DNA of 64,000 bases from Rhizophagus irregularis. Taxonomy: Eukaryota. The notes under the pieces were generated by a model. It saw only the letters and a list, made by a program, of their open reading frames with translations, was not told the DNA's origin and made no database searches. The stretch covers positions 186,001 through 250,000 of the forward strand of contig NC_089434.1 of assembly GCF_026210795.1 (NCBI RefSeq), written 5' to 3'. Below are positions 1 through 34,574 of the stretch, piece after piece. The position numbers and the translations under genes were made by a program. Each line of letters starts with the position of its first letter. Position 1 is the first letter of the stretch.

Positions 1-2
1 TC

Positions 3-2687
3 ACTGAGCTTATTCGTAAAAAACTTCCGACAGCTCTACAAGGAAATAGCATTATCGATAACATAGCAAACAAATGTTCATTCTCCTTGCGGATGCTTGG
101 ATCACCCAAATACAATGAAAAAACTGGAGAACATATTCGTGTGAAAAAAGCTATTTGTCCCAAAGATGGAACAATCTTTGACTTCATGATTCGCCCACCC
201 AATGATGAATCAGAAGTCATCAAGAACAGTCCTCTCTTGGTTGTTCTGAAAGCAAAAATGGAGGGATATCCTAGCACAAATAATGTTATCACCGATGCTG
301 AATTCGAACTAGTAGAGACATTACTTCAAGAAGCTAGCATCGAAGGGTATAGTCTCTCATATCCATCTGAAAATTTTCCTAACAAATTTCCACTATCACG
401 CATCTCCCCATCGCACTGCCCAATATGTGACCGAGAACATGATAGTGATCATGGATATATTATTCGAAATAAAAAATCCTACAGCTTTTTCTGCTACCGG
501 GCAAACAATGATAGGGAACCCGGCTCTAGAAAACCTTCGAAAAAGCTTACTATTAGTGAAACTGCCTTGGATCGAGAACAAAAGTTCCCAAGTCCTACAA
601 AACTAGACCGATCCAGAATTTCTGACCCAAATGACCGTTTCGTATGGGGAGATTTAATTGATATGAGCACCTCTGGGCGAAAATTTTCTCGTAATGAAGT
701 TTATGAAGCAATACAGGCAACGGTCGCCTGTATTCAAACAACATCAAGATTATGGGTGCTCAAAATAGAGGATACGAATGGTGGACTCTATTTTGATATG
801 GCGCCAAAGCTAGATCTTGCCAAGTATGAAGTTAACTTGCTTGAGCTAGGTGGGGAGGGGGTGAAGTTAATTAACTTAATAGATCGGGCGGTTACCAAAG
901 GTCTAATCCTTTACCACAATATTAATTTTCTACCGTATCTGCTGAATAGTCCAGTTCCCAATACAAAGTTCTTTAACCTTTTCATAGGATTTTTGGCTAA
1001 GCCAGCGGTGGAAATTAATCCCGAAATCATGGATCCTATTCTCTGGCATACGAAGAATATAATCAGTAATGAAAATGTGGAGCTTCATGAATATCTTTGG
1101 AATTGGTGGGCATATTTAGTGCAGAAGCCAGAAAAAAAGCCTCGGTCAATCTTAGTCTTAAAGTCTACACTACAGCAGTGTGGAAAAAATATTATCACTG
1201 ACTTTATTGGTGACAAAGTCCTAGGGGGACATCTCCATTATGCTACATCGGATTTGGAGAAAATTCTTGGGCGATTTAATAGTGCTATTCAAGCTCGAAA
1301 ACTTATTGTTATGAACGAGACTGAAATGTCTAGTGGGGAATGGCATAAATTTAACGGACATCTTAAATCCCTTATAACGGAAGGAATGGTGTCTATAGAG
1401 CGTAAGGGTATTGAAACAAAGCGAATTAGAGATTTCACCAGATTTATGGTTACAAGCAACCAGGATGCTCCGCTCAAAATAGATATAGGGGATTCTCGTG
1501 TAGTCTGTTTTGATGTATCTTCACGATGTAGAGGAAATACAGTATATTTTAAGCGACTAGGAAAAGTTCTTGACTATCCCGATGCACCAGGAGTAGTCAT
1601 GAGATATCTTCTTAGTCGCGACCTCTCAGACTTTGAACCACAAGAAATTCCTGTAACTAAAATGAAGATAAAAACAATGCGAGACCAATTACCTAATCCC
1701 ATCCGATTTATAATTGACTATATTTCTTCATGGTGTGGGGTTAAAATAGCCAGTCCAAGTCGTACATTATTATATCAGAAGTATCTTGAATGGTGTGGAG
1801 AGAATGGTGAAAAGCCATTTTCTAATAACATTACCGGGAAGAAATTTTCAGATATTGGTATTGAGAGCAAACAAGCGCGAACAGGTGGCGGAAAAAGGGA
1901 ATGGCAATATATACTTGACCGCTCCAAGATCGTAGCCAAGCTCTGTGAATCTGGCCTAAGTGATATGGAAGAATTTTCCGATATACCTCAAGACGACTTG
2001 CCCGAAAATGAGACTACAGACATACCCATATTCAATGTGCCAGAAACGGTCCTAGAGGGACCAACTATTCCACAGAAAATAATCCCACCTCAGCCAGAGC
2101 GCCATAACAGAGTAGCCGATAGAAAGAATAAGCTTTCACCTAATACCAGTAAAGATAAGAAGGCCAGTAATCAGGATGATTCGACTCAGGCACTTTTCGA
2201 CTATATGGCAGAAGATACACGTGCTCTGGTCGCCCCAACATCTGGTACATCCGAGACTTCTAAAAGACCTGAACCAGTAATCGATGAACCAGAGACTTGT
2301 AAGTCACCCAAATCTATTAAATCTAGTAACGAAGTATCATCTACCATACTTCTGGCTAGACAAGAGCGAGAAGAGTGTCTCAGGAAATGGGCTATCGATC
2401 ATGGCGAAGATCCAGACGTATTCGTGACCATCACAGAAAAAGATATCAGACTATCTCATGAATATAGGGACAGAATGATGTCGGACGCAGATGCCATCGA
2501 TTTCGTGAAAGAAGACGGTATGAATGTAAACGATATATTTTATATGTCTAGGAGAGAAAGGCTAATAAGTGAAGAAATATATCTCCGCAACTTCGAGAAT
2601 GCAGGTAAGCTCCGGACATATGTTTATGACGATGAGGAGTGGCAAAAGGGTATTAGCATACTTCAAGAGAACGGTCACCTATGGTAG
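3..2687 (+). CDS. AEP (PrimPol-like) primase + Zn ribbon + D5-like SF3 helicase, 5'-truncated by the window edge
   Basis: Frame is open from base 3 (IIDNIANKCSFSLRMLGSPK, AEP motif III-like). Zn ribbon CPICDREH...FFCY; Walker A-like QQCGKN; Walker B IVMNE; motif C MVTSN; C-terminal winged-helix-like LYQKYLEWC. Confidence 0.85.
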   Translation, partial: TELIRKKLPTALQGNSIIDNIANKCSFSLRMLGSPKYNEKTGEHIRVKKAICPKDGTIFDFMIRPPNDESEVIKNSPLLVVLKAKMEGYPSTNNVITDAEFELVETLLQEASIEGYSLSYPSENFPNKFPLSRISPSHCPICDREHDSDHGYIIRNKKSYSFFCYRANNDREPGSRKPSKKLTISETALDREQKFPSPTKLDRSRISDPNDRFVWGDLIDMSTSGRKFSRNEVYEAIQATVACIQTTSRLWVLKIEDTNGGLYFDMAPKLDLAKYEVNLLELGGEGVKLINLIDRAVTKGLILYHNINFLPYLLNSPVPNTKFFNLFIGFLAKPAVEINPEIMDPILWHTKNIISNENVELHEYLWNWWAYLVQKPEKKPRSILVLKSTLQQCGKNIITDFIGDKVLGGHLHYATSDLEKILGRFNSAIQARKLIVMNETEMSSGEWHKFNGHLKSLITEGMVSIERKGIETKRIRDFTRFMVTSNQDAPLKIDIGDSRVVCFDVSSRCRGNTVYFKRLGKVLDYPDAPGVVMRYLLSRDLSDFEPQEIPVTKMKIKTMRDQLPNPIRFIIDYISSWCGVKIASPSRTLLYQKYLEWCGENGEKPFSNNITGKKFSDIGIESKQARTGGGKREWQYILDRSKIVAKLCESGLSDMEEFSDIPQDDLPENETTDIPIFNVPETVLEGPTIPQKIIPPQPERHNRVADRKNKLSPNTSKDKKASNQDDSTQALFDYMAEDTRALVAPTSGTSETSKRPEPVIDEPETCKSPKSIKSSNEVSSTILLARQEREECLRKWAIDHGEDPDVFVTITEKDIRLSHEYRDRMMSDADAIDFVKEDGMNVNDIFYMSRRERLISEEIYLRNFENAGKLRTYVYDDEEWQKGISILQENGHLW

Positions 2688-3082
2688 GTTTGATATCGAC
2701 AAGAAATGACAAAAAATATAAGCATACTCAGCGCAAGCGCGGAGAATGGTATGCTTTGGTAAAGAGCGAATAAGAGTGGGTTATGAAATATTAGTAGGGA
2801 TGGGACTTTCGTTCTTTACAATTAGGCGATATAAAATCCCAAATTATTATTATTTTTTTCGCATATCCTATCTACCCGCAATTTTCAAATATATATATAA
2901 AAGATATTCTGGCCGGAGCTTGTGACCTCATAGAGAGCCCGCAATAAGTTATAATATTCTTTTTGCCCACCGACCATGGATGTCAGAACAATTATTTATT
3001 TTTCGAATTGAACTTTCTCCGCATAGTATATACCAAACAACCTAGGTATAACCAAATATCCTACATATTACCAAATAATAAC

Positions 3083-33078: not shown

Positions 33079-33203
33079 GATATTATATCGCAAATATACA
33101 GTTCGAGAGAAACTATATACTCTGGGAGAAAAAAGTTTAAAATGAAAATTAATTCTGAACTATATAGATCGATACATAAATCAACAATCCATAGTTATTA
33201 AAA

Positions 33204-33485
33204 ATGGTATTTTATCGATGTACTTATATCCACAGGAGTGGTAAGATTTGCAATCGAGGATGCTACCATCCGGAAGGATGTTTTATTCATCGCAATTCTC
33301 CTTCTCAGGTATTTTGCAAAGAATGTGAAAAATTATCTTATTCCGGATATGGATATTGCGATGATCATGCTAGAAAGCACCGTAAAAGGGAACAATACCA
33401 TCGGAAAAGGATGGTAGACTTAGCTTCGGCGGAGATACTGGTAGGTAATTTAGAGGTAAACGAAAATGATACAACTTGTCACTAG
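33204..33485 (+). CDS. Small zinc-finger protein
   Basis: CTY...KIC...GCFIH and CKEC...YCDDH. Confidence 0.6.
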   Translation: MVFYRCTYIHRSGKICNRGCYHPEGCFIHRNSPSQVFCKECEKLSYSGYGYCDDHARKHRKREQYHRKRMVDLASAEILVGNLEVNENDTTCH

Positions 33486-34574
33486 AAAAAAAACTTGTGA
33501 CAGAAGCTTGTGACGCAGATGATAAGCTCTTTAGGAATTCTAGGCCGAAAGAAAGTTTTCTTGATGAGTGTCACAGGTGGCATAGACGTCACTGGAAAAA
33601 TCGGCCAAATCCTAACTTTTTTTTATTTTTTATAGCATATATACACCACATATATATCATACATATACTATATCACGATACATATATAGCATTAGGATAG
33701 CATAGAAAATTTTTGATTTTTTTCCTAGAATTTATTACTCTTTTACTTGTGACACTAGTGACAGTAATCAAGAAAGAAATAAAATAGCCTAATAATCTCA
33801 AAAAGCATAATGAACATGTCATAGTTCTTGCATTAAGGGCATTTAGTATATGAAACTTATGACACTAGTGACGCTCAAAAAATAGCATACAAATGACATA
33901 CAAATAGCATACATATGTAGCATAGGAAAAGTTTCGAATTTTTTCCTACAACTTTACTTTTACTAGGGACACTAGGGACACTAGGATATAGTATATAAGA
34001 ACAAGTTAGATCAAAGAAAGAAGCTTTTCTCCCATATCAAAACCCGTCTAGCTTCCCGTCCTAGTTGACCCAATAACTTAGACAACTAGGACGGAATTTT
34101 TAGAACGAAATCCATCTCAAAAATATGTTTACATATTGCACCTCCAATTCTTTACTAACCAACCATCCGCCAGACTGGAGCTGTGGAAGATTTCAGAAAT
34201 ATATGGATACAAAAATATGTGATACAAATGCATATATATTGGATTCCAGAAATGTTCCAGAAATGTTCCCGTTACTAGCCCGTAACTATGAATGGCTGTT
34301 CTGGTGATGGAATAGTATCACGTGTCTGGCGCAGTACCGGCCAGCATTATTCCACAATTTCGGTCAGAACTTTGGGTATAAGAAGTCGACATCCAAGCTG
34401 ACATTCCATAACACTTCCATGATGGTTCCTCGCTAGTTCCATGACAGCTTCACAGAAGTTCCAGGACACTATTAAGTCACCATCATGGTACTAAGCTGGA
34501 TCCTCGAATCACATGCCCAAAAGATCGGCCAAAATTATGATATAGTGCCGGCCAAAATTAATCGCAGATCTACT
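33476..34574. repeat. Non-coding subterminal region with iterated short motifs (GTGAC/GTCAC, GACACTAG, CTAG, TAGCATA, CGGCCAAAATTA)
   Basis: For example GTGACACTAGTGACA (~33748), GACACTAGTGACG (33861), ACTAGGGACACTAGGGACACTAGG (33962), and CGGCCAAAATTA twice near 34526-34560. Confidence 0.6.

What the first reader, a model, noticed from the sequence alone, without database searches (positions are those of the whole stretch)
1..34574. Element A: a >34-kb hybrid of asfarvirus-like replication genes, Polinton-type integrase/ATPase and Gag
Seen: intact intronless PolB, AEP-SF3 primase-helicase, A32-like ATPase, rve integrase, Gag-PR, tyrosine recombinase and NCLDV-style small proteins. No RNA polymerase or major capsid protein is visible in the part shown. 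Known: asfarvirus-related endogenous viral regions occur in arbuscular mycorrhizal fungi. Inference: a mid-sized integrating element that captured giant-virus replication genes, possibly a satellite or reduced derivative of a fungal giant virus.
Basis: partly seen in the sequence, partly recalled or inferred. Interest (0 to 1): 0.88.

Follow-up and report, generated by a model that had tools for sequence, protein, structure and literature searches.

The report
Hairpin-ended virus-derived transposon in mycorrhizal fungi
This stretch of a mycorrhizal fungus genome carries a giant-virus-type DNA polymerase, a primase-helicase, an integrase, a 50-base palindrome at its likely end and an enzyme predicted to fold like bacterial hairpin-telomere resolvases, so it is likely a capsid-less mobile element that would copy itself as a linear hairpin-ended DNA, which would explain the many scattered viral polymerase genes of these fungi.

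Summary
The genes are real and the host is Rhizophagus. PolB is the known multicopy asfarvirus-like 'fundsbetavirus' polymerase. Only PolB and the AEP-SF3 primase-helicase are intact in this copy; recombinase, A32, integrase and Gag-PR are broken.

PolB, helicase and resolvase lie close together at many loci in several Glomeromycota families. Best model (about 0.65): a self-synthesizing element that replaced Polinton protein priming with RNA-primed replication and hairpin telomeres, inserting by its rve integrase. The left end, a target-site duplication and any activity were not seen. No capsid was found. This anatomy was not found in nine literature searches.

The parts
1..35234 (.). Visible part of the element; inferred total about 38 kb, left end about 2.6 kb left of the window
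   Evidence: GC step; shared N-termini; contig depth and joints
3..2687 (+). AEP primase-SF3 helicase, intact, 5' part outside the window (full 1048 aa, P0121); starts with the same 16 residues as PolB
3083..4227 (+). Predicted protelomerase (telomere resolvase); frameshifted here, intact 380-aa homolog P0238 is 94-99% identical
4876..6198 (+). F-box and F-box/LRR cargo genes, partly broken
8348..10068 (+). Crinkler N-terminal domain followed by a protein-kinase ORF (host-type cargo)
   Evidence: PF20147 E 8e-28, Pkinase E 6e-16
10357..19877 (+). Cargo block of unassigned ORFs (96, 191, 550, 153, 308 and 286 aa), some Cys/His-rich
   Evidence: no above-cut-off family hit
20241..20870 (+). Conserved 209-aa ORF; a cluster member lies 14 gene models from a helicase in another assembly
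20830..21572 (-). A32-like packaging ATPase, frameshifted here; the break is absent from contigs of two other runs
21639..23275 (-). rve (DDE) integrase, 44% identical to the integrase of Maverick element B; frameshift before a C-terminal part that ends in a Cys-rich domain
23306..26594 (+). Gag-like protein, zinc knuckle and aspartic protease, no RT or RNase H; broken here; 32-38% identical to element B's module
27402..28454 (+). 350-aa coiled-coil protein with a hydrophobic C-terminal stretch, function unassigned
29068..33078 (-). Asfarvirus-like family B DNA polymerase (RNA/DNA-primed type), intact, intronless
33031..35234 (.). Inferred right terminal inverted repeat (about 2.2 kb), covering PolB's first 16 codons, its upstream region and a small Cys/His ORF (33204-33485)
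   Evidence: left arm not seen
34990..35162 (.). AT-rich subterminal tandem repeats (periods 19-59)
35185..35234 (.). Perfect 50-bp palindrome without spacer, 5'-AG...CT-3'; proposed telomere-resolution site and element terminus; a host repeat resumes at about 35,237

Best explanation
This is likely one capsid-less, self-synthesizing mobile element of about 38 kb (length inferred) in a Rhizophagus genome: it encodes an asfarvirus-like DNA polymerase, a primase-helicase, an rve integrase and a predicted telomere resolvase, and would replicate as a linear DNA with covalently closed hairpin ends. Shown: the genes, the palindrome, the shared start of the two replication genes, and close linkage of polymerase, helicase and resolvase at other loci. 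Inferred: long TIRs drive both replication genes inwards from the two ends. The primase-helicase and PolB copy the element by RNA priming. The resolvase cuts the terminal palindromes and reseals them as hairpins, which frees a copy and solves the end-replication problem that Polintons solve with a terminal protein. The integrase would nick beside the CT at the base of the hairpin and join it to host DNA, which unfolds the hairpin and leaves the full palindrome at the junction, as seen. This copy is decayed or mis-assembled in four genes and could move only with help from intact copies.
Against: The left end, a second palindrome and a target-site duplication were not seen; no genome is held. 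The TIR rests on protein N-termini and on contig depth, which is not copy number. The repeat-plus-palindrome block has much higher depth than the rest of the TIR and could be a separate high-copy host repeat. Linkage of rve and A32 to PolB at other loci was not shown (their exact ORFs were not in the collection), and contigs of one run join 20069-23280 and 20838-23298 across that block. The resolvase has no Pfam, PHROG or PDB sequence hit, the full-length profile comparison failed, and only 5 of 12 four-sequence protelomerase subsets reached E below 0.05. A fold is not an activity. In 6 of the 10 same-contig pairs compared, the gene models did not share N-termini (most begin at an internal Met).
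Confidence: 0.65

Rival explanations
1. A TIR-bounded PolB-helicase-resolvase replicon is the real unit, and the A32-integrase-Gag-PR block is an optional or nested Maverick-derived module. Insertion would then come from the resolvase (reverse telomere fusion) or from integrase supplied in trans by Mavericks such as element B.
For: Integrase 44% and Gag-PR 32-38% identical to element B; contigs join across the A32-rve block; Rhizophagus A32s group with Maverick-Polinton ATPases (bioRxiv 10.64898/2026.06.19.733378, passage).
Against: No internal TIR or duplication bounds the block; element B has no A32; a protease cluster member lies 11 gene models from a resolvase in another assembly; the end obeys the AG...CT rule seen in element B.
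Confidence: 0.17
2. The element is a TIR transposon that ends at 34,574 as first read; the palindrome belongs to a neighbouring host repeat, and the resolvase-fold protein acts on another site or as an ordinary recombinase.
For: AGTAG at 34,574 resembles element B's end; L003 similarity fades there; depth is very high at 34,975-35,235.
Against: Contigs and joints from diverged copies run through 34,574 to 35,027 and beyond; no loose ends at 34,574 among those listed (582 more were not shown); a resolvase fold and the window's only long palindrome would coincide by chance.
Confidence: 0.1
3. Eroded remnant of a larger endogenous giant virus, such as the 1.5-Mb region of strain 4401, plus independent insertions.
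For: PolB is asfarvirus-like; four genes are broken; host-type cargo.
Against: PolB and helicase share lineage-specific N-termini in three genera and keep a 9-41 gene spacing; no other window ORF matched 33 giant-virus loci; no RNA polymerase or capsid hit.
Confidence: 0.05
4. An integrated virus proper whose virion proteins are unrecognised (Gag-based particle or divergent capsid), packaged by the A32 ATPase.
For: A32, Gag-PR without RT, and a membrane-anchor-like protein are kept; the PolB tree mixes host genera within subclades.
Against: No capsid family hit; no MCP found in five R. irregularis genomes (PMC10640383); no related contig in IMG/VR for PolB, resolvase, integrase or the palindrome at close range. 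The unknown ORFs were not folded.
Confidence: 0.03

Closest known systems
'Fundsbetavirus' / multicopy Asfarviridae-like polB of Rhizophagus irregularis (PMC7017919; PMC10640383; PMC5294986)
   Same: Same polymerase family (93-94% identity to Rhizophagus proteins); 15-33 copies per genome at variable positions.
   Different: Those papers read the copies as fossils of repeated virus infection, in regions encoding only PolB among ten markers. The text I saw describes no TIRs, helicase linkage, resolvase or palindrome.
Polintons/Mavericks (element B in this window; Glomerales Mavericks, PMC11952901)
   Same: rve integrase, A32-like ATPase, TIRs (inferred), AG...CT end, related Gag-PR module.
   Different: RNA/DNA-primed giant-virus PolB and primase-helicase in place of protein-primed PolB; predicted resolvase and terminal palindrome; about 38 kb; no capsid hit.
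Phaeovirus endogenous elements of Ectocarpus (PMC13236599)
   Same: Integrated Nucleocytoviricota-type replicon with a telomere resolvase and a palindromic linearisation site.
   Different: Those are complete giant viruses with capsids that integrate by a separate tyrosine recombinase at CC sites and linearise at an internal site. Here the palindrome is terminal, the integrase is DDE, and no capsid is seen.
Phage N15, phiKO2, PY54; Agrobacterium TelA; Borrelia ResT
   Same: Predicted fold, five catalytic residues, spacer-less palindrome of similar size (N15 56 bp, PY54 42 bp).
   Different: About 12% identity; eukaryotic host; coupled to integration.
Mycodnaviridae and punuiviruses (PMC13533422; PMC13236599 passage)
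   Same: Giant-virus PolB together with a polinton-like integrase; punuiviruses have large TIRs.
   Different: Up to about 350 kb (Mycodnaviridae) with capsid and many core genes; other lineages and hosts.

Membership tests
Polinton/Maverick | Protein-primed PolB | tested here: not met
   PolB matches RNA/DNA-primed PF00136 and groups with asfarvirus-like enzymes
Polinton/Maverick | Retroviral-like rve integrase | tested here: met
   PF00665 E 5e-10; 44% to element B; frameshifted after the core
Polinton/Maverick | A32-like ATPase | tested here: met
   PF04665 above cut-off on the C-terminal piece
Polinton/Maverick | Long TIRs with AG...CT ends | tested here: inconclusive
   Right end fits; left arm inferred from shared N-termini and depth
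Polinton/Maverick | Target-site duplication (6 bp in element B) | not testable with these tools
   Left junction lies outside the window; no genome held
Polinton/Maverick or PLV | Double jelly-roll major capsid protein | tested here: inconclusive
   No Pfam hit; unassigned ORFs were not folded
Nucleocytoviricota giant endogenous element | Virus-type PolB | tested here: met
Nucleocytoviricota giant endogenous element | AEP-SF3 (D5-like) primase-helicase | tested here: met
   no homolog found in 33 virus loci near PolB
Nucleocytoviricota giant endogenous element | RNA polymerase, VLTF3, capping enzyme and a genome above about 70 kb | tested here: not met
   No such hit in 44 ORFs; inferred unit about 38 kb, with about 2.6 kb unseen
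Protelomerase / telomere resolvase | Helical-bundle plus catalytic-domain fold with a helical linker | tested here: met
   Top 8 rows TelA/TelK/ResT, model residues 98-371; helix 164-184; linker described in PMC3558466
Protelomerase / telomere resolvase | Catalytic R-K-x-R-H-Y set, without the His of the HxxR motif | tested here: met
   the position three before R315 is Ser, Arg or Lys in the sequences read
Protelomerase / telomere resolvase | Pfam ResT-TelK_cat above cut-off | tested here: not met
   No hit at E 0.5 for three homologs; Atlas features point to it at 0.94 with only 142-143 of 256 features shared
Protelomerase / telomere resolvase | Hairpin formation on a palindromic target | not testable with these tools
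   Needs an enzyme assay or fold-back long reads
LTR retrotransposon | LTRs, reverse transcriptase, RNase H | tested here: not met
   No long direct repeats; no RT or RNase H hit

The most novel reading that the evidence does not exclude
A new superfamily of eukaryotic self-synthesizing transposons, old in Glomeromycota, that excise and replicate as N15-like hairpin-ended linear DNA with a captured giant-virus polymerase and a protelomerase, insert with a Polinton integrase, carry effector-like cargo (Crinkler, kinase, F-box), and account for most 'solo' viral polB copies. Intact copies could persist as linear nuclear plasmids, and might supply a replicative polymerase in a family that lost Pol epsilon (this last step is speculative, under 0.05).
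Probability: 0.5. Interest if true: 0.92.

Novelty: new variant of a known kind. Interest (0 to 1): 0.82.

Why it matters
It would turn a known puzzle, 15-33 stray asfarvirus-like polymerase genes per Rhizophagus genome, from a record of repeated giant-virus infection into the spread of one mobile element family. It would give a eukaryotic transposon that solves end replication with a telomere resolvase, an intermediate between Polintons (protein priming) and hairpin-ended giant viruses. The enzyme and its 50-bp site are both named, so the central step can be tested in a tube. The element carries Crinkler, kinase and F-box genes, families expanded in these symbionts, so it may be a vehicle for strain-to-strain variation.

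Full report
Host and observation. The PolB at 29068-33078(-) is 93-94% identical to Rhizophagus irregularis and R. clarus proteins, so the host is Rhizophagus. The first 35 kb are GC 0.34-0.42 against about 0.17-0.31 in host flanks. PolB (1336 aa) and the primase-helicase (3-2687) are open frames. The recombinase, A32, integrase and Gag-protease are each split. These breaks are not the family state: the A32 break is absent from contigs of runs X1 and X4, the Gag stop from all contigs of three DNA runs, and an intact 380-aa recombinase, P0238, is 94-99% identical. 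I cannot tell decay from assembly error.

The polymerase is viral and already known. Its best solved relative scores E 4e-206 against 2e-12 for Pol delta (that entry 8ywg is the African swine fever virus enzyme is recalled, the table says only 'DNA polymerase'). In a FastTree tree of 79 sequences and 995 columns, the window and all 30 Glomeromycota or soil-metagenome sequences (27 named, 3 unnamed) form one clade (1.0). It nests among environmental asfarvirus-like viruses, beside the clade holding two loci that carry 8ywg motifs (0.98). Host genera are mixed within subclades. No Pol delta was in the tree. Gong et al. named this polymerase 'fundsbetavirus' (PMC7017919, parts 1-2 of 3 read). Zhao et al. 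counted 15-33 copies per R. irregularis genome, found no D5, A32 or capsid marker, and read the copies as repeated infections (PMC10640383, parts 1-3 of 5 read). Among window ORFs only PolB had homologs in 33 giant-virus loci. The primase is of the C962R type by Atlas features (0.97); the helicase domain matches 6k9e/6k9c.

The unit is closed and about 38 kb. The full helicase, P0121, starts 154 residues left of the window with the same 16 residues as PolB. The two genes face inwards from opposite ends, so the simplest cause is a long inverted repeat reaching into both. The pattern recurs with different sequences in same-scaffold pairs: 51 of 60 residues in Diversispora, 26 of 30 in Gigaspora, 12 of 15 in R. 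clarus. A further R. irregularis pair on different contigs shares 75 residues. Six of the ten same-contig pairs compared did not share N-termini, mostly because the gene models start at an internal Met. Summed contig depth roughly doubles near 33,000 in 4 of 4 runs; this is a hint only, since contig depth is not copy number. Mirror symmetry puts the left end about 2.6 kb outside the window. That end was not seen.

Linkage elsewhere. Matching contig lengths and accession numbers, R. clarus PolB and helicase lie 18, 16, 29, 14, 14, 10 and 16 gene models apart in 7 of 8 same-contig pairs, and 125 apart in the eighth. Of the 11 R. clarus contigs with a PolB, six had a helicase in my lists, which show only cluster representatives and sampled members. 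Diversispora pairs are 41 and 16 apart and a Gigaspora pair 9 apart. The recombinase has the locus tag next to the helicase in at least four loci. A protease homolog lies 11 models from a recombinase, and the 209-aa ORF 14 from a helicase. Linkage of integrase and A32 to PolB outside this window was not shown, and contigs of run X1 join across that block.

The right end. Diverged copies give joints 34561-34834 and 34917-35027 in 4 of 4 runs, tying the segment to the tandem repeats at 34,990-35,162. Depth falls 6- to 12-fold after 35,235, and a host repeat resumes at about 35,237. The last 50 bases are a perfect spacer-less palindrome, AG...CT, the only one with an arm above 10 in the window; 20 shuffles reach 7-11 (fold z -7.8). 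Against this: the soil copy L003 aligns only to about 34,572-34,595, and the terminal block is deep enough to be a repeat family of its own. I put the end at 35,234 with about 0.7.

Mechanism. Polintons copy linear ends with a protein primer (established knowledge). An element with an RNA-primed PolB and a primase needs another answer, and a resolvase with a terminal palindrome is the answer used by N15 and proposed for phaeoviruses (PMC13236599, passages). I infer that resolution of the two palindromes frees a hairpin-capped copy, that PolB and the primase-helicase replicate it through a dimer, and that the resolvase splits the dimer. A nick by the rve integrase after the CT at the hairpin base, followed by strand transfer, would unfold the hairpin and leave a full palindrome against host DNA, which is the junction seen. 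The integrase is 44% identical to that of element B, which has AG...CT ends and a 6-bp duplication. None of these steps is shown. The roles of A32 and Gag-protease without a capsid or RT are unexplained; a particle is possible but has no support here.

Novelty. Each module has precedent, and giant viruses with polinton-like integrases or resolvases exist (PMC13533422, PMC13236599, passages). [quoted passage not shown] Surveys of transposons in these fungi mention Mavericks without this anatomy in the passages seen (PMC11952901, PMC8647823). PMC5294986 and bioRxiv 10.1101/2025.09.02.673565 were seen as passages. Nine searches (listings only unless named above) showed no paper describing a fungal element with this polymerase, TIRs and a resolvase. 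Subscription papers, Repbase and the supplements of the two key papers, which include gene maps around the polymerase, were not seen and could hold part of it.

Verdict. A real, likely undescribed family of capsid-less self-synthesizing elements of Glomeromycota. Confidence in one TIR-bounded PolB-helicase-resolvase unit is about 0.85; in the full hairpin-plus-integrase model about 0.65. Interest 0.82.

Noticed in passing
window 36965-48911: Element B, a complete Maverick-type element: 381-bp TIRs 99% complementary, 6-bp target duplication, 1052-aa polymerase-like ORF with protein-primed-type motifs (read by eye; no Pfam polymerase hit), rve integrase, Gag-protease, F-box; no A32 or capsid hit.
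   Followed up: partly
window 7616, 10313, 12200, 12851, 18071: A dispersed palindromic motif of 28-46 bp in five places inside element A; two copies are read in frame within the 550-aa ORF.
   Followed up: partly
window 15891-16098: Four 30-nt repeats spaced 51-69 nt apart in a non-coding stretch; unexplained.
   Followed up: no
window 8348-10068: Crinkler N-terminal domain followed by a kinase ORF inside the element, probably one intron-containing gene; with F-box/LRR genes it suggests the element carries host-expanded families.
   Followed up: partly
P0076 (Gigaspora rosea protein): A gene model with a helicase-type N-terminus and PolB sequence, as could arise from recombination or deletion between the two TIR-fed genes.
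   Followed up: no
P0030, P0034, P0038, P0040, P0048, P0051, P0056, P0060, P0108, P0113: A second Glomeromycota PolB subclade with different N-termini that matched no helicase N-terminus among the top pairs; it may belong to another element type.
   Followed up: no
P0440, P0425, P0468, P0474, P0481, P0494: Distant resolvase homologs (about 29-37% identity) on unnamed metagenome contigs of 1-22 kb; possible relatives outside fungi.
   Followed up: partly
window 35800-35982: A small element with 77-bp inverted arms inserted in the host repeat between elements A and B.
   Followed up: no
window 50522-58217: Diverged direct repeats and a 442-aa ORF (52500-53828, -) with no Pfam hit; probably another decayed repeat.
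   Followed up: no
literature, bioRxiv 10.1101/2025.09.02.673565: Glomeraceae have lost Pol epsilon, zeta, eta and Rev1; the passages seen do not mention the multicopy viral PolB, which these genomes keep in intact copies.
   Followed up: no
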